Shown in pieces: positions 2,293 through 18,330 of a stretch of 64,000 nt of DNA. Below the pieces are notes generated by a model. It had not been told where the DNA came from, did not search any database, and worked only from the letters and a program-made list of their open reading frames with translations. The translations under genes and the position numbers were made by a program. Source of the DNA: Planctomycetota bacterium (GTDB lineage: Bacteria; Planctomycetota; UBA8108; SXIK01); contig CBDCXR010000004.1 in assembly GCA_965223845.1 (NCBI GenBank), positions 1,088,001 through 1,152,000 on the forward strand, written 5' to 3'. How positions within the stretch are numbered: the first letter of the stretch is position 1; each line of letters opens with the position of its first letter.

Positions 2293-5200
2293 ATGCGCAT
2301 AAGATGCCTGACGCTCTGGTGCGTTCTCAGCTTGATCGTGTCGCTCGGCTGCGAGTTCGACAGCAGCAACAGCGGCTCGGGCGGCGGCTCGGTAGGTCCC
2401 GGTCCGGGCACGACCGGCGCGGGCGCCGGACCCGGCACGGGGGGGCCGGCGATCACCGCTCCCATCCTCCTCGACATGGTGTTCCAGGGTGATGGAATCT
2501 GCCCTGGCGACGAGGTCACACTGATCGGGCTCAACTTCTCGTCGGACCTCGCGGAGAACGTCGTGACGTTCGCCGCGGGCGTCACGCGGATTCGCGGGCT
2601 TCCCCTCCGCGTCGTCTTTCCGACGGACGACGAGGCGTCGAACGGCCTCGAGTCGCGGCTCACGGTCATCGTCCCCTCGGGCGTCGTGAGCGGAAACGTT
2701 GAGCTGAACGTAGGTGGAATTCCGGCGGGTGCTCGCGGTTTCACGGCGTGCCCCCAGATCATGGCCGTCACGATCGGACGGAACCGCGACGTCGAGGCGA
2801 TGCCGTTCCTCGGTCCGCTCGGATTCGATGCCCAGCGTTCGTTCCTCGAGCTCCACGGGATCAACTTCGGCGAGATCCAGCGCGTGCGGCTCTTCGACTC
2901 GCAGGGAAACGAGGCGAACATCCCGACGAACACGATCCAGCGCGGCGTCAATCAGGGCGGAAACCCCTTCGACCCCGACGCGCCGCCCCCGACCGGGTAC
3001 AGCGTCATCGGGTTCAATCTGAAGGACGATCGGAACGACGTCCCCCTCAGCTTCCCCAATTCCCGGGACAACATGCAGGTGCAGATCGTCGGTCCGGGAG
3101 GGTCGTCGAATATCGTCGAAGTCCCGATCTTCGACGAATCGACCGGTCAGACCGTCGATACGAATCCCGACAACCTCGGCCTCGTCATCAACGGCGTGAA
3201 AGTCCCGACCGGAGTTCGTTCGGGACCCGTTCGAATCCGTTACTCGGTCTACGACGGTCAGGTGAACGCCGCCTGGCGCCTGAACTTCGAGTGGAAGCTC
3301 CTCGAAGATCCCGCCGACGCCTGGCGCATCGCTCGACCGCTCGAAGAGGACGTTCTCCACGACGGCGTCGAGGGCATCCTCGGTGGCACCATTCGCCATC
3401 CGAGCGGTCACCGTCTCTTTCCTGGCGGCGGTACCGTGCGCACGTTCACTTGGGACGCGCAACACGACATCGTCCTCTGTCTACTTGCGGAGGATCAGCC
3501 GATCGAGGACACGCGGCGCGATTTCGCGATCCAGTTCCGCATTCGTCCGGAGATCGACATCGCGGATGCGACGAGAAACATCCGTCTCGACCACACCTGG
3601 GAAACTCCGACGATCGTCTACTACTACATGGAGGATCTCAACGGCGCCGAGTTGGCCGCCAGCGATCTCGACAAAGTCGTCACCGAGGGTTTCCAAGACG
3701 ACGTGCTCGAGGACGCGGAGACGACCGCGCGCTGGGGACCCCCGTCGAACATCGGAGCGCTGATCGGAAGTCTCCCGCAGACCTTGCCGGCGACGTTCGG
3801 TGAGGGACAGGAAGACATCTTCCTCGCCAACCAGCCGCTCGATCCGGCGCTGATTCAGTGGTGGTCGATCGACACCACTCGAATGACGATCTCGTTCAAC
3901 ATCCTCGATGACCAGGGCACGCCGGCCGATCCAAACGACGACATTCAGCAAATCGAGCCGCTCGATCACTTCAACCCTGGTCGAGATGACTTCGAGTTTC
4001 ATTTTCGATCCCTCACGATCGATCCGGATGTCATCGTGCTCGTTTTCGGTGAAAACCCGCTCGTCATTCGTCTCTCCGGTACGGGGAACGATGACGACAT
4101 CGTCTTCCAGTGCGATGGCATCCTGGATTGCGATGGGGTCGACGGCGAATCGACTCCGCGTTCGCTGAGTGCGAACGCCTCCCACATCGGCGGCCGCGGA
4201 GGGATCGGCGGTCCGGGAGGAGGACCCGGCGGCCAGGGCGGTACGCTCGTTCTCGCGAACTCGTCGTTCAACGCGCGCGTCCTGGAGATTATTCTCGCCG
4301 GGGCCGGCGGAAACGACGGGGGCTCGGGCGGGGAGACCACCGCCGCGGTCGAGTTCACGCCGGATGCGGTTTCGCAGTTTTGGGGGGCTCCGGGAGGCGG
4401 TGGTGGCCACCGGCGCCCCGGGGGTGATGGCGATACCCAGTTCCCGAAGCCCGTCGAATACCAGCCGGCTCGCGCCGGTCTCGGTGGTCCGGCTCGCGGC
4501 GAGCCCGCGCAGCTCGAGCAGACGGCTGGATCGGGAGGCGGCGGTGGCGGTGCGTCGATCGGCCGAGTTGGTGTCAACGGGATTCCGACCGGGCTCGTCA
4601 CCGGAGGGGCCGGCGGCGGCGGCGGCGGCGGCGCCGTGCGAATCGTCGCGAGCGGTTCCGTTCGCGTGGGGGGCACCGGACTCGTGAGCGCTGCCGGAGG
4701 CGACGGTGGGATCAGTGGAGGAGATCGGCTCGAGATCCCCGGCGGTGGACAATCTCCGCCCGTGACCGCGGGTGGCCCCGGAGGGGGCGGCAGCGGCGGG
4801 AGCATCGTGATTCGGGCGACCGGATTCGTTGACGCCGGCTGCGAAAGCCTGAACGTCGACGGCGGCGCCGGCGGGATCGCCGGTCGCGTGCAGAACGGAG
4901 TCATCCGCCGGAGCGATGTGAACTTGATCGCTGGATCCGGCTCTGGTTCCCCCGGTTGGATCCGAGTGGAAACGCTGAACGGCGGGTCGCCGAGTTGCGC
5001 CGCGTTCTACGCTGCAACGACCTCGACCGACTGTATCGCCGCGGACGATTCTGTTCTCCCCGTCGCCTCGGTGGAGGGCTTCCCCCCGTCCGGGACGATC
5101 CTCGTCAGCGGCGAGGTCGCGACGACGAGCAACTCTGGCGCGTGCCGTGACACGGGTACGGGCGAATTCGCGACGGAGGAAATGTTCTACGTCGCCGTCG

Positions 5201-7110
5201 ACCCAGTCGCGACGACGCTCACGGTTCAGCGGGGACTGAATGGCACGACGGCGCGTCCGTTCATCGGCGGCGCGAGCATCACATTCAAGGGCGCGATCGT
5301 TCCTCAGGATACGGCCGTCCTCGCGGGCGGTGGGGTCGTCCCGTCGCCGGATGACGTGACCCCCGGGGCCGGACGCGATGGCGAGCTCCACGTCCGGTTC
5401 ATCCCGAGCACGGATCCCGACACCGGCCTGCCGCTCGAGGACCCCGATACCGGCGAGACGATTTCGCTGTGGGTCTTCGACACCGACGTCGGTGCGCTCA
5501 CCGATCCGAACGGCGATGTCGTGCTCGAGGTACGCACGGCGCAGACGAACCCGGGATTCATGGATCTCACCCGTCTCGTCATCGATCAGAATGCGACGCT
5601 TCGCGCGCAAGGGACGCGCCCGTTGATCATCTCGGTCGCCGGCGACGCAGAAATCTCCGGGGCGATCGATGTCTCGGGCTTCGCCGGTGGGGCGCTGCGG
5701 TTCTCGACGGCGGATCCGACCCGACCCCAGCCCGGATTGGGCGGCGGGGGAGGACCCGGCGGCGGAACCGGAGGTGCGGGCGGCCACATCGTCTACCGCA
5801 ACGGCGACGCGAGTGACAAGGATCCCGCGAACACGATTCCCGTGAGCGGCGAGGCTGGTGCCCTTCCCGCCGGAGTTCCCGAAGAGTGGGACATGACGCC
5901 GGTTCCGTACGGAAACGGCGGTGGCGAGAACCAGGCGGTCGTCTTCCCGGCGACCACTCGCGCGATCCCGGGTGCGAGTGTTCGCGGACAGAACTGTCTC
6001 CCCTGCGAGGAAACCGCGGGCGGTGGCGCCGGGGGCGGAAACAACGGTCGCGGAGCCGACGGCGGAGCGGCCGCGGCATTCCCGTCTCAGCTCGCCCCGG
6101 TCGACGCGGCCCTTCACGGAAGTGGAGGCGGTGTGTTCGGCTCGCAGCTCATGCGCTACGAAGGTGGGCTCTTCCTCTTCGGCGCGCCCGGAGGTTCGGG
6201 CGGAGGCGCGACCCCGCACACGTCGTCGTTCTACAACAACGGAATCGCGGCGCCCGGAAGCGTGCTCTTCGGCGGGCGCGGCGTGAGCGTACCGCGCGCC
6301 AAGGAGGCACCTGGGACCGGAGGCGGAGGAGGAGGAGGTTGTCTCTACATCCTCGCTCAAGACTTCTTCCTTCGGCCGGGCGGGCGCATCCTCGCTCGCG
6401 GTGGCGACGCATTCCAGAGCATCGACCTCGGCGGGAACGGCGGCGGCGGGGGAGGCGGAAACGTCCTGATCCGCGTCGCGAACTCGCTCACGCTCTCGCC
6501 GTCGGCGTCCGTCGACGTCAGCGGCGGACGCGCGAACCTCGCCGTGCCGATCGACCCGGGTCAGCAGCTTCCGCTCTACGAGGGCAACCTCCACGGGGCG
6601 AACAACGATCCGGCGCAGTTCGGCTTCTACGGTGGTGTCGGCGGAAACGGCGCGATCGGACGCGTTCGCATCGAAGCGGACCGCGCGTCGCTTGCGATTT
6701 CGTCGGGGCTCAATCCCTATCTTTCGACCGGTCCGTTCCTCCTCGACACGTTCGGCTCGGTCGGAGTCTCGAAGGCCATCGAGCTCGGAGTCGGGCCCGG
6801 AAACGCCGTGTTCGCGACGAATATTTCGCTCTCGGCCAGCTCGGTTCGCTACCACGACTTCGGCCAACCGCTGGGAACGGATTCAGTCGTCGTTTGGGAA
6901 GGAGCCGACGAGAGCCTCGATCGTCACGGCCTCGCGGGTCCGTTCATGCAGCGGATCGATGATCCGCGGCAGCTCGAGTTCAATCAGTTCACGCGGTTCC
7001 GCGTGAATCTGATCTCGAGCTCGTCGGCACAGGAGAGTCAGTCGGTGCGCCAGATTCAGCTCCGCTACTCGTACGCTCCTCGTCCCGACACGGATTGTCT
7101 CTTCCGCTGA
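2293..7110 (+). CDS. Large (1605 aa) secreted glycine-rich lipoprotein, putative surface/adhesin protein with an N-terminal IPT/TIG-like domain
   Basis: Signal peptide with lipobox (LIVSLG-C) and upstream AGGAGG RBS. IPT-like segment PGDEVTLIGLNFS...VTF...LTVIVPSGVVSGNVELNVGG. Two long polyglycine-rich modules. Confidence 0.85.
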   Translation: MRIRCLTLWCVLSLIVSLGCEFDSSNSGSGGGSVGPGPGTTGAGAGPGTGGPAITAPILLDMVFQGDGICPGDEVTLIGLNFSSDLAENVVTFAAGVTRIRGLPLRVVFPTDDEASNGLESRLTVIVPSGVVSGNVELNVGGIPAGARGFTACPQIMAVTIGRNRDVEAMPFLGPLGFDAQRSFLELHGINFGEIQRVRLFDSQGNEANIPTNTIQRGVNQGGNPFDPDAPPPTGYSVIGFNLKDDRNDVPLSFPNSRDNMQVQIVGPGGSSNIVEVPIFDESTGQTVDTNPDNLGLVINGVKVPTGVRSGPVRIRYSVYDGQVNAAWRLNFEWKLLEDPADAWRIARPLEEDVLHDGVEGILGGTIRHPSGHRLFPGGGTVRTFTWDAQHDIVLCLLAEDQPIEDTRRDFAIQFRIRPEIDIADATRNIRLDHTWETPTIVYYYMEDLNGAELAASDLDKVVTEGFQDDVLEDAETTARWGPPSNIGALIGSLPQTLPATFGEGQEDIFLANQPLDPALIQWWSIDTTRMTISFNILDDQGTPADPNDDIQQIEPLDHFNPGRDDFEFHFRSLTIDPDVIVLVFGENPLVIRLSGTGNDDDIVFQCDGILDCDGVDGESTPRSLSANASHIGGRGGIGGPGGGPGGQGGTLVLANSSFNARVLEIILAGAGGNDGGSGGETTAAVEFTPDAVSQFWGAPGGGGGHRRPGGDGDTQFPKPVEYQPARAGLGGPARGEPAQLEQTAGSGGGGGGASIGRVGVNGIPTGLVTGGAGGGGGGGAVRIVASGSVRVGGTGLVSAAGGDGGISGGDRLEIPGGGQSPPVTAGGPGGGGSGGSIVIRATGFVDAGCESLNVDGGAGGIAGRVQNGVIRRSDVNLIAGSGSGSPGWIRVETLNGGSPSCAAFYAATTSTDCIAADDSVLPVASVEGFPPSGTILVSGEVATTSNSGACRDTGTGEFATEEMFYVAVDPVATTLTVQRGLNGTTARPFIGGASITFKGAIVPQDTAVLAGGGVVPSPDDVTPGAGRDGELHVRFIPSTDPDTGLPLEDPDTGETISLWVFDTDVGALTDPNGDVVLEVRTAQTNPGFMDLTRLVIDQNATLRAQGTRPLIISVAGDAEISGAIDVSGFAGGALRFSTADPTRPQPGLGGGGGPGGGTGGAGGHIVYRNGDASDKDPANTIPVSGEAGALPAGVPEEWDMTPVPYGNGGGENQAVVFPATTRAIPGASVRGQNCLPCEETAGGGAGGGNNGRGADGGAAAAFPSQLAPVDAALHGSGGGVFGSQLMRYEGGLFLFGAPGGSGGGATPHTSSFYNNGIAAPGSVLFGGRGVSVPRAKEAPGTGGGGGGGCLYILAQDFFLRPGGRILARGGDAFQSIDLGGNGGGGGGGNVLIRVANSLTLSPSASVDVSGGRANLAVPIDPGQQLPLYEGNLHGANNDPAQFGFYGGVGGNGAIGRVRIEADRASLAISSGLNPYLSTGPFLLDTFGSVGVSKAIELGVGPGNAVFATNISLSASSVRYHDFGQPLGTDSVVVWEGADESLDRHGLAGPFMQRIDDPRQLEFNQFTRFRVNLISSSSAQESQSVRQIQLRYSYAPRPDTDCLFR

Positions 7111-7889: not shown

Positions 7890-9080
7890 ATGTTCAAGAA
7901 GTGGTTCGGAAAAGAGAAACGTTCCGAGGCGGCGCCGGCGAGTGAGGCCTCGAGCGGAGCCGACCGGGACGCGGGCGGCGCCGTCGTCGACGAGGCGCCT
8001 CCGCCTCCCGAGTCGGAAGCCGACGAGCACGCGTCGCCCGGCGTCCCGGAGGAGTCGAGCTCGGCGACGGCCACGGACGGCGACCCGGCGAGCCCACCTG
8101 AAGACTCGACCTCGACGACGACGGACGCCCCCCCGCCTTCCGTCGAAGAGGAAACGCCGAAGAAGAAGTCCCGCTGGGCTCGCTTCGCGGCCGGGCTAGC
8201 GAAGACGAAGAAGAATCTGACCACGCTCTTCAGTCTCCGCCGAGCGCTCGACGACGACTACCTCGACGAGCTCGAGTCGGAGCTCTACGGCGCCGACTTC
8301 GGGCCCGCGGTCGTCGCCCAGCTCATGGACGGAGAAGACGGAGTTCGTCCGGCTTGGAAGAGGAAGGAGATCGCGAACCCGGAAGACGTTCGTGGATACC
8401 TGAAGACTCAGCTCCGCGCGCAGCTCGAGCGTCGGGACGGCGGCATCGCGCGGGCGACGACCGGACCGACGGTGATCCTCGTCTGCGGCGTGAACGGAGC
8501 CGGAAAGACCACCTCGATCGCGAAGCTCGCGCACCGCCTTCGCGCCGAGGGGCACTCGGTCGTTCTGGCCGCGGCGGACACGTTCCGGGCGGCGGCCGTC
8601 GAGCAGCTCACGATCTGGAGCGAGCGGATCGGCGCGGACATCGTCACCGGAGACTCGGGCGCAGATCCAGCGTCGGTCGCCTTCCGTGGCGCTCAGAGGG
8701 CCGTCGAGACGGACGCGGACTATCTCATCGTCGACACCGCGGGTCGACTTCACACGCAGAAGAACTTGATGCGCGAGCTCGGCAAGATCCGATCGGTGCT
8801 CGGAAAGCAGATCGCGGAGGCTCCCCACGAGGCGCTTCTCGTTCTCGACGCGACCACCGGACAGAACGCGCTCAATCAGGCGCGCCTCTTCGGCGCCGAG
8901 GTCGACGTCTCCGGCCTCATCATCGCGAAGCTCGACGGGACGGCGAAGGGCGGGATCGTCGTGGCGATCAACAACGAGCTCGACGTGCCGGTCAAGTTCG
9001 TCGGGCTCGGGGAGAAGGTCGAAGACTTCGCCACCTTCGACTGCGAGCGCTTCGTCGAGGCTCTCTTCGACTCGGAGTGA
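7890..9080 (+). CDS. ftsY: Signal recognition particle receptor FtsY
   Basis: Acidic N-terminal region; GVNGAGKTTSIAKLA, DTFRAAAVEQL, DTAGRLHT and KLDGTAKGG motifs. Confidence 0.97.
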   Translation: MFKKWFGKEKRSEAAPASEASSGADRDAGGAVVDEAPPPPESEADEHASPGVPEESSSATATDGDPASPPEDSTSTTTDAPPPSVEEETPKKKSRWARFAAGLAKTKKNLTTLFSLRRALDDDYLDELESELYGADFGPAVVAQLMDGEDGVRPAWKRKEIANPEDVRGYLKTQLRAQLERRDGGIARATTGPTVILVCGVNGAGKTTSIAKLAHRLRAEGHSVVLAAADTFRAAAVEQLTIWSERIGADIVTGDSGADPASVAFRGAQRAVETDADYLIVDTAGRLHTQKNLMRELGKIRSVLGKQIAEAPHEALLVLDATTGQNALNQARLFGAEVDVSGLIIAKLDGTAKGGIVVAINNELDVPVKFVGLGEKVEDFATFDCERFVEALFDSE

Positions 9081-9081
9081 G

Positions 9082-9090
9082 CGCTCCGCC
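9082..9090. repeat. 9-bp inverted repeat, right copy (CGCTCCGCC)
   Basis: Starts 2 nt after the ftsY stop; exact reverse complement of 7303-7311. Confidence 0.6.
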
Positions 9091-9102
9091 CCAGGGTTCG
9101 AC

Positions 9103-9582
9103 TCAGTCCGGATCGCCCGCATCCATCGCGCGGTAGAGATTCGCCATCTGAGCCGCCGCGGCCGCCGCATCGGAGCCCTTGTTCCCCGCCTTCGTTCCCG
9201 CTCGCTCGATCGCCTGCTCGATCGTGTCGGTGGTGAGGATCCCGTAGATCACCGGGACGGGTGCTCCCCGTGCGACTGCGGCTACGCCCTTCGCGGACTC
9301 GCCGGCCACGTAATCGAAGTGCGGCGTCCCCCCGCGGATCACCGCCCCGAGGCAGATCACGGCGTCGTAGCGGTTCGCGGCCGCCACCCGCTCGGCGACC
9401 GGCGGGATTTCAAACGCCCCGGGCACCCAGAAGGTGTCGATCGCGTCCACGTCCGCGCCGAGCTTCGAGAGCGTTCCCTTCGCCCCGCGGACGAGGTGCT
9501 CGACGATGAAATCGTTGAATCGCGACGCAACGATCGCGAACGTGCGGCCGGATGCGTTGAGTGTGCCTTCGTATTCGGTCAT
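9103..9582 (-). CDS. ribH: 6,7-dimethyl-8-ribityllumazine synthase
   Basis: [48 protein letters not shown]. Confidence 0.97.
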
Positions 9583-9819
9583 GTCGTGCTCGTGGGAGAA
9601 GCGCGAGAATCCAAGATCATAGCGTGAAACGAGCGTGCGGTTCTACGCTACGCCCGCTATCCGCGGCCGGGGCGGGAGGCTCGGGCTCTCGCCGTCCCGC
9701 GCGCCACCGTTTCCATCGTCGGCGAAGGCGCGACGGAATGTTGCCGGTCGGTGCGCTGAGAGGCCCGCGGTCGCGAGCAGGAGCGGGTTATCGGCTCTAC
9801 GAGCGTTCGCGACGGAGAG

Positions 9820-11364
9820 TCATTCCCACTCGATCGTCGCGGGCGGCTTCGAGCAGAGATCGAGCACGACGCGGTTTACGCCGCGAACTTCATTGCAGAT
9901 GCGAGTCGAAATCCGGGCCAGAATCTCGCGCGGGAGATAGACCCAGTTCGCCGTCATGCCGTCGGTCGACTCGACGACTCGGAGCGCGACCACGTGCTCG
10001 TAGGTCCTCCGATCGCCCATGACTCCGACGGTCTGCACCGGGAGGAGGACGGCGAACGACTGCCAGATGCGATGGTAATTGTCGTAGGTCTGGACTTCCT
10101 CTTGGACGATGCGGTCCGCCGCGCGGAGCGTGTCCAGCCGCTCGTGGGTGACTTCGCCGAGAATGCGAACCGCGAGACCGGGCCCCGGGAACGGCTGCCG
10201 TTCGATCAAAGGTTCCGGGAGGCCGAGCTCGCGCCCGAGGCGGCGAACTTCGTCCTTGAAAAGGAACCGGAGGGGTTCGACGAGCTCGAACCCGAGCTCC
10301 GCGGGCAGGCCACCGACGTTGTGGTGGCTCTTGATCGTCGCCGACGGACCGCCGGTCGGCGACACACTCTCGATGATGTCCGGGTAGAGCGTCCCCTGAG
10401 CGAGAAACGCAACGTCCGCCAGCTCGGCGGCCTTGGCCCGGAAGACGTCGATGAACGTGTGGCCGATGCTCTTTCGCTTCGCCTCCGGGTCGACGATGCC
10501 GGCTAGGTTCGAGACGAATTGCTCGACCGCATCGACGACGTGGAGATTGAGGTGGAAGCTCTCGCGGAACGTGTTCGCCACGTCTGCTCGCTCACCGCTG
10601 CGAAGAAGGCCGTTGTCGACGAAGATGCAGTGAAGCTGCTCGCCGAGCGCGCGGTGGAGAAGCAGCGCCGCGACGGATGAGTCGACGCCCCCGGAGAGTC
10701 CGAGGACGACGTTTCGCGCCCCGACTTGCGCGCGGATCGCGTCCACTTGCTCGGTGATGAAGCTGCTGAGGGTCCAGTCACCGCGGCAGCCGCAAATCGA
10801 CGCGAGGAAGTTCTTGATGAGCGTCGTTCCTTGAGGGGTGTGAGTGACCTCGGGATGGAACTGAAGCCCGATGAATCCGCTCGGACGGTGTCTCACGGCG
10901 GCTAGAGGACAAGTACTCGTCTTGCCGAGGATTTCGAAGTCGCCGGTGAGCGAGCCGTTCTGGCTCACCTGATCGCCGTGGCTCATCCAAACGGTCGTTT
11001 CGCGATCGAGCCCGGCGAAGAGCGGATCGTCGGTGAGGGTGATCGTCGCTTCGCCGTACTCGCGGCGCTCCGACGGGATCACTTCGGCGCCGAGAAGACG
11101 ACATGCGAGCTGCATGCCGTAGCAGATGCCGAGGACGGGCACGTCGAGCTGAAGAAGCTCGGGATTGAGCTGGGGAGCCCCGTCTTCGTAGACGCTCGCC
11201 GGACCACCGGAGAGGATCACCCCGCGGAGGCCTTCCGAACGGAGCTGGGCGGGCGGCGTGTCGAACGGAAGGATCTCGCAGTACACGTTCTGCTCTCGGA
11301 CGCGCCGTGCGATGAGCTGAGTGTACTGGGAACCGAAATCGAGAATGGCGATGGTCTCTGCCAT
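9820..11364 (-). CDS. guaA: GMP synthase (glutamine-hydrolysing)
   Basis: LDFGSQYTQLIARRVRE, GICYGMQ, QFHPEV, SGGVDS, IKSHHNVGGLP, KPPATIEWE. Confidence 0.98.
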   Translation of the reverse strand: MAETIAILDFGSQYTQLIARRVREQNVYCEILPFDTPPAQLRSEGLRGVILSGGPASVYEDGAPQLNPELLQLDVPVLGICYGMQLACRLLGAEVIPSERREYGEATITLTDDPLFAGLDRETTVWMSHGDQVSQNGSLTGDFEILGKTSTCPLAAVRHRPSGFIGLQFHPEVTHTPQGTTLIKNFLASICGCRGDWTLSSFITEQVDAIRAQVGARNVVLGLSGGVDSSVAALLLHRALGEQLHCIFVDNGLLRSGERADVANTFRESFHLNLHVVDAVEQFVSNLAGIVDPEAKRKSIGHTFIDVFRAKAAELADVAFLAQGTLYPDIIESVSPTGGPSATIKSHHNVGGLPAELGFELVEPLRFLFKDEVRRLGRELGLPEPLIERQPFPGPGLAVRILGEVTHERLDTLRAADRIVQEEVQTYDNYHRIWQSFAVLLPVQTVGVMGDRRTYEHVVALRVVESTDGMTANWVYLPREILARISTRICNEVRGVNRVVLDLCSKPPATIEWE

Positions 11365-11460
11365 GAACTGTCTCTCTCGGAGTCAGCGCGTCCGCGAAGG
11401 CGGCTGCCGCTTCACTCGCCGAATCGGGTGAGAGCTGCGGGAGAGCTCCCAACCCATCAC

Positions 11461-12969
11461 CTAGGGGTTGTTCTTCACGCCGAGCACGGGCTCTTCGTAC
11501 GACTGGAGGCTGTGTACGAAACCTTCGCGCTGCGCGGACGGACTGCGCCGCTCGTAGCGGAGGGTCCCGCTCGCGAGCGCTTCGTGGAGCGCGTCGATCG
11601 ATCGGCAGCCGAGATCCTGGAGCGCCTGGCGGAGGCTCTGCACGATGTAGGCGATCAGATCGACGACGGAGCCTTTGTCGACGACGACGCCCGAGACGCC
11701 CTGAGCGACCTTGATCGCGTTGTCGTCGTACAGGTAGCGCTTGCCGCCGCCCTTCTGAATCGCTTCGGCCGAAGCCATGCCGCGGTACTTCTTGACGCGC
11801 ACGCCGTCCTGATAGAAGTACTCGCCCGGCGACTCTTGAGTGCCCGCCAGCATCGATCCCATCATGCCGGCGCTCGCGCCGCACGCGAGAGCCTTCGCGA
11901 GTCCGCCGGTCGTGGCGATGCCGCCGTCCGCGACGACCGGAACGCCGGCCTCGCGGCAGTACTTCGAGCAATAGTAAACCGCCGTCGCCTGCGCACGACC
12001 GCAAGCCATCGTTTCCTGCGTCGTACAGATCGAGCCGGGTCCCATCCCGACACGAATTCCGTCGGCGCCCGCGCGAATGAGGTTCTCGCACTGCTGCGTG
12101 GTGACGACGTTTCCCGCGATGACGTCGATGTCGGGACACTCCGTCTTCACGAAGCGGATCATTTCCTCTTGAAAGATCGAATCGCCCTGCGCGGAGTCCA
12201 CCACGATGGCGTCGACACCCGCGGCGGCGAGACCGAGGATACGATCGCGGTCCTCGGGGCGCGTCGACACCGCGGCGCCGACGCGGAGCTGCTTCCGCTC
12301 GTCCTTGCACGCCCACGGAAAGTCGCGGTTCTTCTTGAGGTCGGTGCGCGAGACGAGCGAGACGAGGAGCCCCGCGCTGTTCACGATCGGAAGCTTTCCC
12401 TTCTTCGATTCGCGGAGGAGCTCGTTGGCGCGAGGAAGGGAGACTCCTTCGGGCGCGGTGATGAGATCCGTCACCATCATCTCACGGAGAGGGCGGTCGC
12501 GGTTGCTCTCGAAATCGATGTCGCGACTCGTCACGATGCCGACGAGGCGGGTTTCGAGAGTGCCGTCCTCCGTGATCGGGATGCCGGAGAAGCCATCGCG
12601 CTCGCGGATCGCATCGATGTCGCGGATGCGGTGGTCGGGGCTGAGGACGATCGGGTCGGTGATGAAGCCGTTCTCGAACCGCTTGACCTTTCGGACCTCG
12701 CGGATCTGATCGTCGGGCGTCGCGTTGTAGTGGATGATGCCGATGCCGCCCTGGAGCGCCACGCCGATCGCCATCTTCGACTCGGTCACCGTGTCCATGG
12801 GCGAGCTCACGATGGGAGCCTTGAGGCTGATGCGGCGCGTGATGCGGGTCGACAGGTCGACGTCGTGGGCCCCGAAGTCGATGTGACCGGGTAGCAGAAT
12901 GAAGTCGTTGTAGGTCAGACCGTGCCGGCTCTCGAAGAGCTCGCGGGCGCTTTCGCCGTCTCGCTGCAT
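11461..12969 (-). CDS. guaB: IMP dehydrogenase with CBS pair, eukaryote-like sequence type
   Basis: Start placed at ATG 12969 (GAGGTG RBS; 502 aa). Motifs [20 protein letters not shown] (catalytic Cys), [20 protein letters not shown]. Confidence 0.96.
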
Positions 12970-13285
12970 CGTCACCTCTCCATGAGTCGCCGTCTCGCCT
13001 CCGGCGCCCGGCCGCGTCGGAACGGCGACCGCGGAGGCCGGACGAGGCGAGCTCGCGTTCCGGTGGCCTGAATCGGCCGGGCGAAACCCCGCGCGGCGAA
13101 CGCGCGATCGGCAAGTGCGACCCGACTCGGGTCGGGGGGTTCCCCGTTCGAGCGCCGTCGTCTCGGCGCAGCTTCGCGCACTGCCCAGCGGCTTCCCGAC
13201 CGCCGACAGGCGGTTTCGATCGAGCTCAGGAAATCCGTCCGCCGGCTTCGGCCGGCGCCGCGAGGGGTGCCTTCCACCGAAGTTG

Positions 13286-13338
13286 GAGCCTGCTTGCCGA
13301 GGGGGCTTCGTCGCTGGACGGGCCCGCTTGCCGAAGGG
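13286..13338. repeat. Imperfect 19-bp direct repeat in the guaB/moxR divergent intergenic region
   Basis: GAGCCTGCTTGCCGAGGGG (13286-13304) vs GGGCCCGCTTGCCGAAGGG (13320-13338): 16 of 19 identical. Confidence 0.45.
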
Positions 13339-13724
13339 AATGAGCCACCACGGCGGCGTCGGCGGTGGAGGCCGAGCACGCCGATGGGCGGTCAAAGGAA
13401 GGATAAGAGAATAAGTACGCGGTTCCGGAAATCAAGGAAATAGCCGTGCTTCGCGGCTCGCGCGCCGTGACTCCTGTTTGCGATTAGATCCCGATCGCGC
13501 GAAAGCGGGCCGGGTGCTTCCCGACTCCAAATCAGCACCCGCTCGAGTCGGGTGAGATTGAAATGGGACCATCCCACGCCTATCATAGGCCACGTGCTCA
13601 AACCGTTTCTAAACAAACGCTTAAGAGAGTTTTCGGACGGCCGAACCGGCCGTGCACGGACCGGATTCTTCGATCGCGGTCCGCGCGCTCCGGCGCCGAA
13701 CGAGAACGACCAGGAGACCTCTGA

Positions 13725-14801
13725 ATGAGTGAGCCTGCCGCTTCGCCCGCCCCGTCGGGCGGCTCGCCCGATGATCTCGCCGCCGTCGAACTTCTTCAGA
13801 ATAAGCACCAGCAGATCCGCGATGAGCTAGCGAAGGTCATCGTCGGTCAGGACGAAGTGATCGAGCAGATCCTGATCTCGATCTTCGCTCGCGGACATTG
13901 CCTCCTCGTGGGTGTGCCGGGACTCGCGAAGACGCTGCTCATCAGTACGCTCGCGCGCTGTCTCTCGCTCTCGTTCTCTCGGATTCAGTTCACCCCCGAT
14001 CTCATGCCCTCCGATATCACCGGAACCGAGGTGATTCAGGAGGATCGAAGCACGGGCGAGCGCGAGTTTCGATTCCTCAAGGGGCCGGTGTTCGCCAATG
14101 TCATCCTCGCGGACGAGATCAACCGGACGCCGCCCAAGACGCAGGCCGCTCTGCTCGAGGCGATGCAGGAGCGCCAGGTGACGGCGGGGGGAAAGAAGCA
14201 CGAGCTCGAGGAGCCGTTCTTCGTTCTCGCGACTCAGAACCCGATCGAGCAGGAGGGTACGTATCCGCTGCCGGAGGCGCAGCTCGACCGGTTCATGTTC
14301 AATATCAGCGTCGACTATCCGAGTGAGGAGGAGGAGGTCGAGATCATGCGGCGGACGACGGTGACGCAAGACGCCGACGTCCAGGCGATCGTCTCCGGCG
14401 AAGAGATCCTCCAGCTGCAGGAGCTCGTCCGTCGCGTACCGGTGACCGACGAGATGATCCGCTACGTCCTCCGGCTCACGCGCGCGACGCGGATTTCGAA
14501 GGATGAGGCGCCCGACTACCTGAAGGAGTGGCTCCAGTGGGGCGCGGGGCCGCGCGCTTCGCAGTTTCTCATCCTCGGCGGCAAGGCCCGGGCGATTCTC
14601 CACGGTCGCACGTACGTCTCGCCCGAGGACATTCAAGCGGTTGCGTACCCCGTTCTCCGCCATCGGCTGCTCACGAATTTCAGCGCCGAGGCCGACGGGA
14701 TAACGTCGCAGACGATCATCGAGCGTCTCGTCAAGGAGACGCCGGTAAACGAGACGAGATCGCTCAAGGGATCGGGTACGCCGCGCGTGCTCGGCTCCTA
14801 G
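13725..14801 (+). CDS. moxR: MoxR-family AAA+ ATPase
   Basis: Walker A GVPGLAKT; [15 protein letters not shown]; [22 protein letters not shown]; [22 protein letters not shown]. Confidence 0.96.
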
Positions 14802-14897
14802 GGGAAGCCCAACGTCGACGACTCACGACCTACGGCGTCTCGCCGCTATGCTCACCGAATCGGCTGAGAATGCGGATTAGAGAGAGGAGACCCCGCG

Positions 14898-15869
14898 ATG
14901 GGGGCTGAACGCTACCTCGATCCGAAGGTGCTGGCGAAGATCGCTCGACTCGAGCTCAAGGCTCGGTTGATCGTCGAGGGGTACATCTCCGGCCTTCACC
15001 GAAGCCCCTACCACGGGTTCAGCATCGAGTTTGCGGAGCACCGCGAGTACGTCCCCGGGGACGATATCCGTCACATCGACTGGAAGGTGTACGGGCGTTC
15101 CGATCGCTACTACATCAAACAGTACGAGGAGGAGACGAACCTCGGCGCGCACCTCCTCCTCGACGCGTCGGAGTCGATGGCTTACCCGTACGCGCGCGGC
15201 GACAAGGCGGCCGTCGAGCGCGCGTCGTCCGCGCCGACCGAAGCGAAGAGCGGCCCACTGGGCTCCGCCCGAATCTCGAAGTACGAGTACGGCACCTACA
15301 TCGCGGCGTCCCTCGGGTACCTGATTCTCAAGCAGCAGGACGCGGCGGGAATTACGCTCTTCGACGACCGCGTGCGCCACTCTGTGTCGCCGAGCTCGAA
15401 TTTGCGGCAGATCGAGACCATCTGCGAAACCGCGCTGAAGGGGGAGCTCAAGCAGACGACGAATGTCGGGGCGATGCTTCAGGAGTTCGCCGATCGGGTG
15501 AAGAAGAAGAGCCTCGTCGTCATCATTTCGGATCTGCTCGACGGGATCGAGAACGTGCAGCGCGGTCTCCGCCAGCTCCGCCAGCGCGGTCACGAGGTGA
15601 TCGTGTTCCACGTCCTCGACCGAGAGGAGCTGCGCTTTCCGTTTCAGAGGATGACCCTGTTCGAGGGGTTGGAGGGTCTCCCCGAGCTGGTCGCCGACCC
15701 GCGCGCCCTTCGCAAAGGGTATCTCGAGGAGCTCGAAGCGTATCTCGAGGAGGTGCGGCGCACCTGCCGCGACCATCTGATCGACTACGTTCTCCTCGAC
15801 ACCGAGGAGAAGCTCCACGTCGCCCTCACATCGTACCTGGCGAAGCGTTCGGGGGCACAGCGCGCGTGA
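14898..15869 (+). CDS. DUF58 / vWA-like protein (MoxR partner)
   Basis: GLHRSPYHGFSIEFAEHREYVPGDDIRHIDWKVYGRSDRYYIKQYEEETNL; MIDAS-like LDASESM. Confidence 0.93.
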   Translation: MGAERYLDPKVLAKIARLELKARLIVEGYISGLHRSPYHGFSIEFAEHREYVPGDDIRHIDWKVYGRSDRYYIKQYEEETNLGAHLLLDASESMAYPYARGDKAAVERASSAPTEAKSGPLGSARISKYEYGTYIAASLGYLILKQQDAAGITLFDDRVRHSVSPSSNLRQIETICETALKGELKQTTNVGAMLQEFADRVKKKSLVVIISDLLDGIENVQRGLRQLRQRGHEVIVFHVLDREELRFPFQRMTLFEGLEGLPELVADPRALRKGYLEELEAYLEEVRRTCRDHLIDYVLLDTEEKLHVALTSYLAKRSGAQRA

Positions 15870-15921
15870 ACGAACTAGCGACGCGCACACGGGCGACGAA
15901 CCGGAGGAGAGCCCCGCGGCG

Positions 15922-18330
15922 ATGGGATTCCTGACGAACTTCTTCCTTCAGCCCTGGATGCTCGCCGGTACGGCGCTCGTCTCCGTGCCGATCATCATCT
16001 ATCTCATCCAGCGGCACCGCTACCGCCGGCGTCCGTGGGCGGCGATGGAGTTCCTGCTTCGCGCGGTGAAGCGCCACCAGCGGCGCATTCAGCTGCAGAA
16101 CCTTCTTCTCCTCGTGGTGCGCTGTCTCATCATCGCATTCCTCGCGCTCGCGATGGCGCGGCCGGTGCTCCGGCAAGCCGGGTTCGTGGCGGGGTCGAGC
16201 GAGAATCAGAACTGGCTGCTCGCGCTCGATACGTCCTTCAGCATGGACTATCGCGTCGAGGGAACGAGTCGCTTCGATGCTGCACGCGAGTCGATTCTCG
16301 CGATGTACGGGACACTCATCCATCCGGGGGATCGGGTGGCCCTCGTGACGTTCGAGGCGCAGCCGCGTGTCGTCATGCCGCCGACCTTCGTCGACGAGGA
16401 CGCGTATCCGCTCCAGCTGAGACGGGAACTCGAGGATCTCCGACTCTCGGCCGAATCGGTCGACCTCGGGAGCAGCTTCGCGCAGCTCGTCGAGACCTCC
16501 GGCGAATTCGCCGCGACCGTGGGCGGCGGTGGGGCGGTCGGCGCGGTGCCGAAGCACGTCGTCGTCTTCAGTGACCTCCAGCGTAAGGACTGGATCACCG
16601 AGGACGGGCCGCGCCACCCTGCGCTCGGACGTCTCGCGGAGCAGGTGAACGAGCAGGGCGGCCAGTTTTTCCTCGCCGAGTTCGGCGTGGACGAAGAGCC
16701 GGTGAACGTCGCCGTGACCGATCTATCGATTCACCCGCCGCAACTCGGCGAGGACGTATGGGCCGAGATCCGTGTTACCGTGCGCAACTTCAGCGCCAAG
16801 GATCTCGAGAACCTCGACCTGACGATCGAGGTCGATGCCGATCCCGACGCGGAGGACGCCGAACCTCAGCTCGGAGGCGTCGTCCGCGTCCCGGCGGGCG
16901 GGACGGTCTCGCGCTCCATGCGCTACCGCTTCGCGACTCCCGGCGATCACACGATCGTCGCGCGACTTCGATCCGACGGGCTCGAGCTCGACAACGAGCG
17001 TTATCTCATCGCGCCGGTGAAGAAGGAGCTGAGCGTCCTTCTCGTCGACGGTGAGCCGACGGCCGATCCGACCGAACGCGAAACCTTTCATCTCGAAGTC
17101 GCGCTACTTCCGGAAGACGATTCGCTCTCGAACGTAGAAGGACGGTGGACGCCGTTCGTGCCGCGCTACGTCCTTCCCGAGCAGCTCGACGAGGTCGCGT
17201 GGGAGGATCACATCCTCGTCATTCTCGCGAACGTGAGTGCGCTCGGAGAGGGCTCGATCGCGTCTCTCAAGGAGTACGTGCGCGACGGCGGAGCGCTCGC
17301 GGTCTTTCTCGGTCCGAACGTCGATCCCCAGCTCTACGCGCAGCTCTTTTCTGAAGACGATGCGCCCGGGCTGCTCCCCTTCCGCCTCGGCGAGGTGCGC
17401 GGCGACCGGCGCTTCCCGGTTCACCTCGCAGCTTCCGATCTTTCGCATCCCGTCGTTCGCTACTTCGAGGAGCGGCGCGAGGCGACGATGCTCCACCGCC
17501 CGCTGATCTCGTTCTACAAGTACTTCTCTCTCGCGGAGCCGCCGCGAGAGGATTCGGGCGCGCGGACCCTCTTTCGCTACACCGATATCGATCAGACTCC
17601 CGCCGTCCTCGACGTCCCCTACGGGCGCGGTCGCGTCTTTTGGTTCAACTCGACGGCGGATCAGGCGTGGAACGATCTCTCGGACTGGCCGGACTTCGTC
17701 GTCCTCTTGTACGAGTCCGCTTCGTACCTCGTCCGCTTCGGCGCGGAGGCGACGAATCTCGGGGTCGGCGACTACTACCGCCGGGCGTACACCGCCGAGA
17801 ACTACGCGTCCGAGGTGACCCTCACGATGCCCGAGTGGGACGGGATCGCAGGGGCCGAGCGAGCACGAACGATCAACAAGGTCATGCGCCGGGACTCGAT
17901 CGAATCGGACGAATCCAACGAGTCTGCGCCCGATGCCGGCGGAGGCGACTCCGGCGGTGACGGGCGCGGCGTCGACGGGGAAGCGGCCGAAGGGTTCGAA
18001 ATCGTCCACGACGACACGTCCGTGCCGGGAGTCTACCGCGTCGACCTTCGCCGACCGCACACCCCGATCGAGGATTCGGTCGAGTACTTCTGCGTGAACG
18101 TCTCGACCGAGGAGAGCGATCTCTCCCCCCTCCGCGACGGGGACATCGCGACGCACGTTCCGGACTTCGAGTACAAGGTCCTCGACATCTCTCGGCGCGC
18201 CGACGAGATCGCGTCGGAGGAGAACGCGATGCGCGGGCGTGAATACTGGAAGTGGTTTCTCGCCATCGTGCTCGCGCTCCTCGTGACCGAATCGGTCCTC
18301 GCGTGGCTCTTCGGGAGGAGGTCGGTATGA
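15922..18330 (+). CDS. BatA-like N-terminal double-TM domain + vWA + Ig-like + GATase-like membrane protein
   Basis: PIIIYLIQRHRYRRRPWAAMEFL...LLLLVVRCLIIAFLALAMARP (BatA-type N-terminus); MIDAS LDTSFSM and FSDLQ; C-terminal TM (EYWKWFLAIVLALLVTESVLAW). Confidence 0.88.
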   Translation: MGFLTNFFLQPWMLAGTALVSVPIIIYLIQRHRYRRRPWAAMEFLLRAVKRHQRRIQLQNLLLLVVRCLIIAFLALAMARPVLRQAGFVAGSSENQNWLLALDTSFSMDYRVEGTSRFDAARESILAMYGTLIHPGDRVALVTFEAQPRVVMPPTFVDEDAYPLQLRRELEDLRLSAESVDLGSSFAQLVETSGEFAATVGGGGAVGAVPKHVVVFSDLQRKDWITEDGPRHPALGRLAEQVNEQGGQFFLAEFGVDEEPVNVAVTDLSIHPPQLGEDVWAEIRVTVRNFSAKDLENLDLTIEVDADPDAEDAEPQLGGVVRVPAGGTVSRSMRYRFATPGDHTIVARLRSDGLELDNERYLIAPVKKELSVLLVDGEPTADPTERETFHLEVALLPEDDSLSNVEGRWTPFVPRYVLPEQLDEVAWEDHILVILANVSALGEGSIASLKEYVRDGGALAVFLGPNVDPQLYAQLFSEDDAPGLLPFRLGEVRGDRRFPVHLAASDLSHPVVRYFEERREATMLHRPLISFYKYFSLAEPPREDSGARTLFRYTDIDQTPAVLDVPYGRGRVFWFNSTADQAWNDLSDWPDFVVLLYESASYLVRFGAEATNLGVGDYYRRAYTAENYASEVTLTMPEWDGIAGAERARTINKVMRRDSIESDESNESAPDAGGGDSGGDGRGVDGEAAEGFEIVHDDTSVPGVYRVDLRRPHTPIEDSVEYFCVNVSTEESDLSPLRDGDIATHVPDFEYKVLDISRRADEIASEENAMRGREYWKWFLAIVLALLVTESVLAWLFGRRSV

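What the first reader, a model, noticed from the sequence alone, without database searches (positions are those of the whole stretch)
11461..12969. Eukaryote-type IMP dehydrogenase in a bacterial guaB-guaA operon
Seen: [85 protein letters not shown], and C-terminal [19 protein letters not shown]. From recalled human IMPDH2 ([60 protein letters not shown]), these match the eukaryotic type. Typical bacterial GuaB instead has DTAHGHS, VKVGIG and PEGIEG. The residues equivalent to human Arg322 and Gln441, linked to mycophenolic-acid sensitivity, look eukaryote-like. The Tyr12/Arg356 filament interface looks absent (shorter N-terminus; YCREAG for YARRFG). The neighbouring guaA is bacterial-type. 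Inference: either transfer from a eukaryote or a bacterial clade sister to eukaryotic IMPDH.
Basis: partly seen in the sequence, partly recalled or inferred. Interest (0 to 1): 0.7.

Follow-up and report, generated by a model that had tools for sequence, protein, structure and literature searches.

The report
Eukaryote-type IMP dehydrogenase in a bacterium
This planctomycete's only IMP dehydrogenase resembles the human and fungal enzyme, down to a GTP-sensing pocket so far described only in eukaryotes, and it belongs to an old clade shared by several bacterial phyla.

Summary
Window 11461-12969 (-) encodes a 502-aa IMP dehydrogenase. It scores 615 bits against human IMPDH1 and about 353-384 bits against bacterial structures. 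It is 55-59% identical to named eukaryotic IMPDHs and 37-47% identical to ordinary planctomycete GuaB. It is the only IMPDH-family gene in a 7.9-Mb Planctomycetota genome and lies 96 nt upstream of a bacterial-type guaA.

It is not a one-off. The same type occurs in:
- 62 of 301 sampled Planctomycetota genomes
- 35 of 121 Spirochaetota (Leptospira among them)
- 12 of 81 Armatimonadota
- Vampirovibrionales

In a careful maximum-likelihood tree these bacteria (Vampirovibrionales apart) form one clade (100/98). No named eukaryote falls inside it. It is sister (92/90) to the group holding all named eukaryotes.

All 108 distinct bacterial sequences carry the eukaryotic KKGK motif and the key residues of the third GTP/GDP site. 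They also carry the Arg/Gln pair that I recall as linked to mycophenolic-acid sensitivity. The literature calls that third site exclusive to eukaryotes.

Function and regulation are inferred, not measured. The direction of the ancient link with eukaryotes is unresolved, because named eukaryote sampling was narrow.

The parts
11461..12969 (-). guaB: 502-aa IMP dehydrogenase of the eukaryotic sequence type (P0001); the stop codon TAG is at 11463-11461
   Evidence: ORF and translation. PF00478 at 431 bits, PF00571 CBS. TIGR01302 at 621 bits, cut-off 481.5; human IMPDH1 at 615 bits.
12975..12981 (-). Shine-Dalgarno-like GGAGAGG, 5 nt before the ATG at 12969
   Evidence: Read directly. The start agrees with the N-termini of relatives.
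12292..12672 (-). Bateman (CBS pair) regulatory region, residues about 100-226. It carries the eukaryote-type nucleotide-site residues Asn100, Gly101, Phe127, Arg149, Asp150, Asn182, Lys190-Gly191-Lys192 (KKGK), Arg208, Asp210, Leu211, Lys213, Lys222 and Lys226.
   Evidence: residue table in Ashbya numbering, checked against the 6rpu alignment. The residue list comes from PMC4660370. CBS domain at residues 162-213.
12025..12027 (-). Codon of the catalytic Cys315 (human Cys331) in GSICTT. Nearby lie Arg306 (human Arg322), Thr317, Asp348, Arg411-Tyr412 and Gln423 (human Gln441).
   Evidence: alignment columns.
11365..11460 (-). 96-nt guaB-guaA spacer
   Evidence: sequence. No terminator-like site was found in it.
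9820..11364 (-). guaA: 514-aa glutamine-hydrolysing GMP synthase, bacterial type (P0002)
   Evidence: GATase, GMP_synt_C. NF000848 at 761 bits, cut-off 400.
12970..13724 (.). 755-nt region between guaB and the divergent moxR-like gene. It holds a pair of promoter-like sites (13558-13586 +, 13611-13582 -).
   Evidence: 2 promoter-like sites against 0.2 expected; no Rfam family (best malK-III at 20.5 bits, E 0.52).

Best explanation
Window 11461-12969 (-) is the working, and only, guaB of a Planctomycetota genome, expressed together with guaA. The enzyme oxidises IMP to XMP with NAD+ through the usual Cys315 thioimidate chemistry.

Its sequence type is the one known from eukaryotes, not the common bacterial one. 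It belongs to an old bacterial clade that was inherited vertically within this organism's class and is scattered over Planctomycetota (including anammox lineages), Leptospirales and other Spirochaetota, and Armatimonadota. That clade is the sister of the eukaryotic IMPDHs.

I infer that regulation also follows the eukaryotic scheme. ATP would compete with GTP/GDP in a Bateman domain with two canonical sites plus the third, non-canonical guanine site, so that GTP compacts the octamer and inhibits it. The Mg-ATP/(p)ppGpp scheme of ordinary bacterial GuaB would not apply. I also infer that the NAD-site Arg306/Gln423 pair makes the enzyme mycophenolic-acid sensitive.

Shown here: identity, family, uniqueness in the genome, distribution, tree position and residue conservation. 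Inferred: catalysis, GTP regulation, drug sensitivity and co-transcription. Which way the ancient link with eukaryotes ran is open.
For: Family and integrity:
- TIGR01302 at 621 bits, over its cut-off.
- The catalytic Cys, Thr, Asp and Arg-Tyr are all conserved.
- It is the only PF00478 match in the 92%-complete genome.

Eukaryotic type:
- 615 bits to human IMPDH1 against at most 384 bits for non-eukaryote-type entries.
- 55-59% identity to 8 named eukaryotic proteins and 2 representatives, against 37-47% to 11 canonical planctomycete GuaB.
- The mirror control behaves as expected.

Native gene:
- G+C is 0.65 against a window range of 0.63-0.70.
- The neighbours are ordinary bacterial genes: SRP-type GTPase, lumazine synthase, MoxR, DUF58, BatA.
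- guaB-guaA adjacency is kept in 31 of 109 related loci, including all 12 loci from the same class.
- Sequences from the same class (families f1-f5) form a clade at 99/96, with the same-family and same-order rows branching closest to the window.

Distribution at E <= 1e-150:
- 62 of 301 Planctomycetota genomes, plus 2 contig-end fragments.
- 35 of 121 Spirochaetota.
- 12 of 81 Armatimonadota.
- 1 of 121 Cyanobacteriota, the centre genome itself.
- Named records include Leptospira interrogans, Kuenenia, Scalindua and Vampirovibrio.
- It is the sole strong IMPDH hit in 5 of 5 such genomes examined.

Tree:
- The Planctomycetota + Spirochaetota + Armatimonadota clade has 100/98 support and is sister (92/90) to the group with all 9 named eukaryotes. 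Canonical GuaB is separated at 100/100 (careful IQ-TREE, 62 rows).
- The 92-row quick tree (SH-aLRT 99) and the 221-row FastTree (0.88) recover the same clade.

Regulation:
- In 108 distinct bacterial sequences of this type, 108 have Asn200, Gly209 (KKGK), Lys210, Arg226, Asp228, Lys240 and Phe145 (Ashbya numbering), and 104 have Lys245.
- The 11 canonical sequences have K/E/Q/R/Y, Glu (RIEK), M/I/A, I/V/L and Gly at the discriminating positions.
- These are the residues PMC4660370 gives for the GDP1-3 sites, and its N200K mutant lost GTP inhibition.
Against: - No enzyme assay, ligand-bound structure or expression data exist for any member. GTP regulation and drug sensitivity rest on residue conservation alone.
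- The link of Arg322/Gln441 to mycophenolic-acid selectivity is recalled (Hedstrom laboratory work) and was not seen in a paper here (one search found only docking papers).
- Named eukaryotes in the tree are few: 6 animals, 'Colp12', 'Opistho-2' and a 375-aa piece of a chimeric diatom transcript. Fungi are represented only by an unnamed representative, recognised by 763 bits to the structures 5mcp/5tc3/6rpu, two of which PMC9375230 uses for fungal ATP/GTP complexes.
- Plants, amoebae, alveolates, excavates and archaea (Asgard above all) are not represented by name.
- Support for the eukaryote-containing group is moderate (88/83), and Vampirovibrionales fall inside it.
- The root is assumed to lie on canonical GuaB.
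If they include eukaryotes, the picture could change.
- Whether the (p)ppGpp pocket is absent was not tested beyond the Glu-to-Gly change in the KKGK/RIEK motif.
Confidence: 0.72

Rival explanations
1. Ancient transfer from a stem or early eukaryote into one bacterium, followed by spread between bacterial phyla. The bacterial clade would then be a very old offshoot of the eukaryotic enzyme rather than its source or an independent sister.
For: The full three-site Bateman signature is shared only by the bacterial clade, Vampirovibrionales, the named eukaryotes and some representatives. The next unnamed outgroups lack Asn200, Lys245 and KKGK. The bacterial distribution is patchy: 62/301, 35/121, 12/81 and 1/121. 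Phyla are intermixed inside the clade, so transfer between bacteria did happen. Vampirovibrionales group with a diatom transcript.
Against: No named eukaryote branches inside or below the bacterial clade. Holding all 34 bacterial rows together costs only 2.0 lnL (p-AU 0.48), so even Vampirovibrionales need not come from eukaryotes. Divergence inside the bacterial clade (about 60-75% identity) is as deep as between the window protein and named eukaryotes. A second unnamed group further out (P0131, P0136, P0138, P0140...) also has Asn200 and Lys245, so parts of the site may predate eukaryotes.
Confidence: 0.25
2. Recent horizontal acquisition of a eukaryotic IMPDH gene by this planctomycete lineage, for example from a host or prey.
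For: High identity to animal and fungal enzymes.
Against: Identity to every named eukaryote is only 55-59%, against 63-79% to other Planctomycetota. G+C is native. The gene is the only guaB and is paired with bacterial guaA in all 12 loci from the same class. The clade spans three phyla at 100/98 with no eukaryote inside.
Confidence: 0.02
3. Contamination or misassembly: a eukaryotic fragment joined into a bacterial assembly.
For: None beyond the similarity itself.
Against: The exact protein sits on a 7.87-Mb contig. The window is continuous bacterial sequence with bacterial neighbours on both sides. There are no introns. An SD-like site precedes the start. More than 100 independent genomes and MAGs carry the same type.
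Confidence: 0.01
4. Convergence: an ordinary bacterial GuaB that independently evolved eukaryote-like motifs.
For: None specific.
Against: The similarity runs along the whole length (residues 3-493 aligned), including the C-terminal segment. The tree separates it from canonical GuaB at 100/100.
Confidence: 0.01

Closest known systems
Human IMPDH1 / IMPDH2 (PDB 7rer, 1jcn, 1b3o, 6u8e)
   Same: About 57% identity over residues 3-493 and 604-615 bits. Same catalytic residues, the same Arg322/Gln441 pair, KKGK motif, Asn198, Arg224, Asp226 and Lys238, and the same C-terminal SAQ.EG..H.L.SYE segment.
   Different: It lacks the N-terminal 12 or so residues with Tyr12, and has Glu at Arg356. No chordate-type filament interface is therefore expected. 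It is encoded in a bacterial operon with guaA.
Ashbya gossypii IMPDH (the model for GTP/GDP three-site regulation; PMC4660370; PDB 5mcp/5tc3/6rpu as used in PMC9375230)
   Same: About 560 bits. Conserved residues by site are: GDP1 (Arg167, Asp168, Lys208, Gly209), GDP2 (Phe145, Gly147, Lys210, Thr227, Asp228, Lys231) and GDP3 (Asn118, Gly119, Leu196, Asn200, Asp228, Leu229, Lys240, Lys245).
   Different: Thr184 is Val166 and Leu224 is Val206. Ala146 is Ser128, where the paper describes a backbone contact. The host is a bacterium. Nothing has been measured.
Canonical bacterial GuaB (for example PDB 3tsb, 1zfj, 4dqw; the canonical planctomycete GuaB L126)
   Same: Same fold family and chemistry. 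Both pass TIGR01302. Same gene name and pathway role.
   Different: Only 37-47% identity. Canonical sequences have the RIEK Glu, Lys/Glu at the Arg322/Gln441 positions, and Gly at Lys245, and they lack Asn200. They are described as regulated by Mg-ATP with GTP at site 2, or by (p)ppGpp (PMC9462843).
Cryptosporidium parvum IMPDH (a bacterial-type enzyme in a eukaryote; recalled, only a search listing seen)
   Same: An IMPDH whose type does not match its host domain.
   Different: Opposite direction, and a single recent lineage-specific transfer. Here the mismatch concerns an old clade spanning several phyla.

Membership tests
IMP dehydrogenase (EC 1.1.1.205; NCBIfam TIGR01302, Pfam PF00478 + CBS pair) | Whole-protein score above the curated equivalog cut-off | tested here: met
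   TIGR01302 at 621.2 bits against a cut-off of 481.5. PF00478 at 431 bits.
IMP dehydrogenase (EC 1.1.1.205; NCBIfam TIGR01302, Pfam PF00478 + CBS pair) | Catalytic Cys in the GSIC(T/I)TQ loop, the Arg-Tyr dyad of the flap, and the IMP/NAD-binding Asp residues | tested here: met
   Cys315, Thr317, Arg411-Tyr412, Asp348 and Asp258 align with human Cys331, Thr333, Arg429-Tyr430, Asp364 and Asp274. The roles of these residues are recalled knowledge.
IMP dehydrogenase (EC 1.1.1.205; NCBIfam TIGR01302, Pfam PF00478 + CBS pair) | NAD-dependent oxidation of IMP to XMP | not testable with these tools
   Indirect support only: it is the sole PF00478 gene in the genome and is adjacent to guaA.
Eukaryote-type, GTP/GDP-inhibited IMPDH (as defined by Buey et al. 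2015, PMC4660370) | 'KKGK' motif with Gly in place of the prokaryotic 'RIEK' Glu | tested here: met
   Window Lys189-Lys190-Gly191-Lys192. Gly is present in 108 of 108 related bacterial sequences and Glu in 11 of 11 canonical ones.
Eukaryote-type, GTP/GDP-inhibited IMPDH (as defined by Buey et al. 2015, PMC4660370) | Third, non-canonical guanine site: Asn118, Gly119, Leu196, Asn200, Leu224, Asp228, Leu229, Lys240, Lys245 (Ashbya numbering) | tested here: met
   The window has N100, G101, L178, N182, V206 (conservative), D210, L211, K222 and K226. Asn200 is present in 108/108 and Lys245 in 104/108 related sequences.
Eukaryote-type, GTP/GDP-inhibited IMPDH (as defined by Buey et al. 2015, PMC4660370) | Allosteric inhibition by GTP/GDP, with octamer compaction | not testable with these tools
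   Inferred from residue conservation only.
Eukaryote-type, GTP/GDP-inhibited IMPDH (as defined by Buey et al. 2015, PMC4660370) | Occurrence restricted to eukaryotes (stated in PMC4660370 and PMC9462843) | tested here: not met
   The gene lies in a bacterial genome, and the type occurs in four bacterial phyla. This is a statement about distribution rather than a structural criterion.
Canonical bacterial GuaB | RIEK Glu, Lys/Glu at human positions 322/441, and grouping with bacterial GuaB in a tree | tested here: not met
   Gly191, Arg306 and Gln423. Separated from canonical GuaB by a 100/100 branch.
Chordate filament-forming IMPDH | N-terminal tail with Tyr12 contacting Arg356 (PMC7018514) | tested here: not met
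   There are no residues opposite human 1-12, and Glu340 lies opposite Arg356.
GuaB1 / GMP reductase paralogues | Score above the NF005869, NF052358 or TIGR01303 cut-offs | tested here: not met
   250, 243 and 222 bits against cut-offs of 549, 675 and 563. A true GuaB1-type paralogue from another planctomycete scores 696 bits.

The most novel reading that the evidence does not exclude
The 'eukaryotic' IMPDH, with its three-site GTP switch, is a bacterial invention. On this reading the clade now found in Planctomycetota, Leptospirales and Armatimonadota, or its ancestor, was the donor of IMPDH to the eukaryotic stem. The allosteric site 3, described as exclusive to eukaryotes, would then have arisen and still operate in bacteria.
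Probability: 0.3. Interest if true: 0.75.

Novelty: new member of a known kind. Interest (0 to 1): 0.58.

Why it matters
1. Regulation. Two papers read here state that the third guanine-nucleotide site of IMPDH is exclusive to eukaryotes and absent from bacteria (PMC4660370; PMC9462843). More than a hundred bacterial enzymes, this one included, carry its residues. If they bind GTP there, the accepted division between eukaryotic regulation (GTP, three sites) and bacterial regulation (ATP, GTP at site 2, or (p)ppGpp) needs a third bacterial category. Easily expressed bacterial models of the human-type switch would also become available.

2. Evolution. A well-supported bacterial sister clade makes the origin of a core eukaryotic purine enzyme testable.

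3. Pharmacology. Work on bacterial IMPDH inhibitors assumes a canonical bacterial NAD site. Leptospira and the other carriers have the human-like Arg/Gln pair instead, so selectivity assumptions may not hold for them.

Six literature searches found no report of this clade. Subscription journals and supplementary alignments were not visible.

Tried and rejected
PDB look-ups showed only that P0123 is fungal-like (763 bits to 5mcp/6rpu). P0124 is not kinetoplastid-like as I had guessed; its best hit is human at 568 bits. P0150 and P0131 are nearer to eukaryotic than to bacterial entries. Both ESM Atlas calls (33, 78) gave mixed taxa and were not used as evidence.

- Getting a diverse, named eukaryote sample. 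A profile of 12 representatives and the protist query P0295 both returned lists dominated by vertebrates. The only non-animal names obtained were 'Colp12', 'Opistho-2' and a Coscinodiscus transcript. That transcript (P0083, 806 aa) is a chimera of three partial copies, so only its last 375 residues were used.

- Rfam scan of 9000-14000 for a riboswitch or leader: nothing (best 20.5 bits, E 0.52).

- Mapping the (p)ppGpp pocket (Streptomyces numbering). 7pmz was not among the five alignments printed, so this was left untested.

- Looking for the primary paper on Arg322/Gln441 and mycophenolic acid: not found in the library.

- Hypotheses rejected: recent eukaryotic transfer, contamination, convergence, and GuaB1/GMP-reductase identity. 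Reasons are given under the rival explanations and the membership tests.

- Structure prediction, fold search, read mapping and complex prediction were not run. At 57% identity to solved structures they would not have changed the reading.
Full report
**The gene.**
The ATG at 12969 follows GGAGAGG after a 5-nt gap, and orthologues start at the same point. The longer 644-aa reading from 13395 is an artefact of open frames in 65% G+C DNA. Pfam finds IMPDH (431 bits) and a CBS domain. NCBIfam TIGR01302 gives 621 bits against a cut-off of 481.5, while the GuaB1 and GMP-reductase models stay far below their cut-offs. After a 96-nt spacer on the same strand lies a 514-aa guaA of the bacterial kind (NF000848 at 761 bits). 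The neighbours are ordinary bacterial genes: an SRP-type GTPase, lumazine synthase, and a MoxR-DUF58-BatA set. G+C at the locus (0.65) lies within the window's range of 0.63-0.70.

**Is it really of the eukaryotic type?**
- Against all PDB sequences the protein scores 615 bits with human IMPDH1, 604 with IMPDH2, about 560 with 5mcp/6rpu/4af0 and about 500 with 6rfu/8c53. The best entry outside these is 384 bits, and 3tsb scores 353.
- A canonical planctomycete GuaB (L126) gives the mirror image: 606 bits to 3tsb and 359 to human IMPDH1. It shows the DSAHGHS / VKVGIGPGS / PEGVEGR motifs.
- By BLASTP the window protein is 55-59% identical to 8 named eukaryotic proteins and 2 representatives, and 37-47% identical to 11 canonical planctomycete GuaB.

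**Only copy.**
PF00478 finds one match in the window's genome (7.93 Mb, 4 contigs, 92% complete), namely this gene. There is no canonical guaB and no GMP reductase.

**Distribution.**
- The best 120 relatives in the large protein collection are 65-79% identical. Where named, all but one (a diatom transcript) are Planctomycetota MAGs.
- Searching 301 Planctomycetota genomes gave a bimodal result.
  - Sixty-two genomes have a match at E <= 1e-178 with 58-75% identity. They include all 15 full-length cases of the window's class.
  - Two more have contig-end fragments of the same type: G200, of the same order, and G079.
  - The remaining matches are canonical, at 41-48% identity and E about 1e-90 to 1e-113.
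- The scan of one genome per species returned 80 loci at 59-75% identity. Their titles include Leptospira interrogans and nine other Leptospira species, Turneriella, many Leptospirales and Spirochaetota MAGs, Kuenenia, Scalindua, Armatimonadota and Vampirovibrionales. Two titles (Proteobacteria, Thermodesulfobacteriota) fall inside planctomycete subclades in the FastTree and may be binning errors.
- Sampling around those genomes at E <= 1e-150 gave 35 of 121 Spirochaetota, 12 of 81 Armatimonadota and 1 of 121 Cyanobacteriota, the last being the centre genome itself.
- In 5 of 5 such genomes (L. interrogans, Turneriella, one Armatimonadota, two Vampirovibrionales) the eukaryote-type gene is the only strong PF00478 match. 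The others score 36 bits or less.
- Of five planctomycetes with two matches, four have an added paralogue, and the one I scanned (L119) is of the GuaB1 family (696 bits to NF005869). One genome (G104) holds both a canonical and a eukaryote-type IMPDH.

**Synteny.**
guaA follows guaB on the same strand, 53-247 nt away, in 31 of 109 related loci (L003-L111). These comprise all 12 loci from the same class and 19 further loci, 17 of them titled Planctomycetota. None comes from the Spirochaetota, Armatimonadota, Vampirovibrionales or anammox-type loci, most of which have 1.5-3 kb of downstream flank.

**Phylogeny.**
- A FastTree of 221 rows put all eukaryote-type sequences in one group (0.98). The rows were loci proteins plus the 430-600-aa representatives of the 50%-identity library. 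The group had two halves: 104 bacterial rows (0.88), and 42 rows of representatives plus Vampirovibrionales.
- I then chose 92 rows:
  - the window protein;
  - 33 of 114 eukaryote-type loci;
  - 5 of 11 canonical loci;
  - 9 of the roughly 170 named eukaryotic proteins obtained;
  - 44 of 150 representatives.
- The quick IQ-TREE (LG+C20+F+G4, PMSF) gave the Planctomycetota + Spirochaetota + Armatimonadota clade an SH-aLRT of 99.
- For a careful run I dropped 30 rows:
  - 21 partial or long-branched representatives (P0125, P0128, P0129, P0132, P0137, P0139, P0142, P0144, P0146, P0152, P0157, P0161, P0163, P0169, P0170, P0175, P0178, P0191, P0193, P0198, P0204);
  - 9 redundant loci (L040, L041, L052, L055, L060, L065, L078, L112, L116).
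- The careful tree has 62 rows and 511 columns.
  - The bacterial clade has 100/98 support.
  - Its sister is a group of 18 (88/83) holding all 9 named eukaryotes, 6 representatives and the 3 Vampirovibrionales.
  - The two together have 92/90.
  - Further out lie two sets of unnamed representatives (96/75 and 93/71), then P0154/P0162.
  - Canonical GuaB sits across a 100/100 branch.
- Inside the bacterial clade the phyla are mixed: Spirochaetota appear in three places. The window's class forms a clade (99/96), with the same-family and same-order rows nearest the window.
- An AU test did not reject holding all 34 bacterial rows, Vampirovibrionales included, together (delta lnL 2.0, p-AU 0.48). 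The position of Vampirovibrionales among eukaryotes is therefore not firm.

**Residues and likely mechanism.**
- PMC4660370 (passages read) lists the residues of the three GDP sites of the Ashbya enzyme. [quoted passage not shown] PMC9462843 repeats this.
- I transferred the numbering through the fungal-like representative P0123, whose printed alignment to 6rpu reproduces the paper's residues.
- The window protein has Asn100, Gly101, Phe127, Gly129, Arg149, Asp150, Leu178, Asn182, Lys190-Gly191-Lys192, Arg208, Thr209, Asp210, Leu211, Lys213, Lys222 and Lys226. It differs only conservatively at Thr184 (Val), Leu224 (Val) and Ala146 (Ser).
- Over 108 distinct bacterial sequences of this type, Asn200, Gly209, Lys210, Arg226, Asp228, Lys240 and Phe145 are present in all 108, and Lys245 in 104. 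The 11 canonical sequences have K/E/Q/R/Y, Glu, M/I/A, I/V/L and Gly at the discriminating positions.
- Human Arg322 and Gln441 are Arg and Gln in 108 of 108, and Lys and Glu in 11 of 11 canonical sequences. That this pair governs mycophenolic-acid selectivity is recalled, not read here.
- I therefore expect a eukaryote-style ATP/GTP switch and mycophenolic-acid sensitivity. This is inference.
- The unnamed representatives just outside the pair of clades lack Asn200, Lys245 and KKGK. A more distant unnamed set has Asn200 and Lys245 but no KKGK, which I cannot interpret without names.

**Filaments.**
The window protein begins opposite human residue 13-15 and has Glu340 opposite Arg356. PMC7018514 (passages) describes the Tyr12/Arg356 contact as carried by a vertebrate-specific N-terminus whose contact residues are conserved among chordates. 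Its absence here is therefore unremarkable.

**Regulatory DNA.**
The 755-nt region upstream holds two promoter-like sites (0.2 expected) facing guaB and the divergent moxR-like gene. No Rfam family matches.

**Literature.**
Six full-text searches combined IMPDH or IMP dehydrogenase with Planctomycetes, Leptospira, 'eukaryotic-like' or lateral transfer, and mycophenolic acid with Leptospira. None found a paper describing eukaryote-type IMPDH in these bacteria. Two candidate papers mention IMPDH only in other contexts. Supplementary alignments of PMC4660370 and PMC9462843, which could include such bacteria, were not visible. Subscription journals are not in the library.

**Verdict.**
The gene is a native, sole guaB of a bacterial clade that shares whole-length similarity and the complete regulatory signature with eukaryotic IMPDH. 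What remains open is the direction of the ancient connection and whether the predicted regulation is real.

Noticed in passing
L088, L101, L104, L107, L110 (Vampirovibrionales loci): Their eukaryote-type IMPDH does not join the Planctomycetota/Spirochaetota/Armatimonadota clade. It sits beside a diatom transcript (P0083) and the representative P0122 (84/49; 98 SH-aLRT). The type was found in no other of the 121 Cyanobacteriota genomes sampled. This may be a separate transfer involving a eukaryote, or the diatom transcript may be bacterial contamination. The AU test leaves a single bacterial clade possible.
   Followed up: partly
P0083 (eukprot, Coscinodiscus transcriptome, 806 aa): The transcript is a chimera of three overlapping partial IMPDH copies: residues 41-138, 190-418 and 432-806 against P0295.
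   Followed up: partly
L118-L121 (genomes G261, G021, G214, G145): Some planctomycetes with the eukaryote-type IMPDH also carry a paralogue that is 29-31% identical to it. The one scanned, L119, is of the GuaB1 family (GMP-reductase-like) at 696 bits to NF005869. The window's genome has none.
   Followed up: partly
L112 and L117 (genome G104, 12.3 Mb): This one planctomycete genome holds both a canonical IMPDH (466 bits to PF00478) and the eukaryote-type one (441 bits). It could be a natural case of coexistence or a contaminated bin (3% contamination is stated).
   Followed up: no
window 27055-30684 (+), within 28001-30000: There is a strong composition anomaly here (AT skew 0.38, GC skew 0.14) inside a 1209-aa ORF with no Pfam match.
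   Followed up: no
window 2293-7110 (+): A 1605-aa ORF with no Pfam match at E <= 1e-5.
   Followed up: no
window 13725-18330 (+): A MoxR AAA ATPase, DUF58 and BatA/VWA gene set lies divergent from guaB.
   Followed up: no
Representatives P0131, P0135, P0136, P0138, P0140, P0165, P0178: An unnamed IMPDH group branches outside the eukaryote-type pair of clades yet has Asn200, Arg226 and Lys245 without the KKGK motif. Parts of 'site 3' may be older than the eukaryote-type clade. The organisms are unknown.
   Followed up: no
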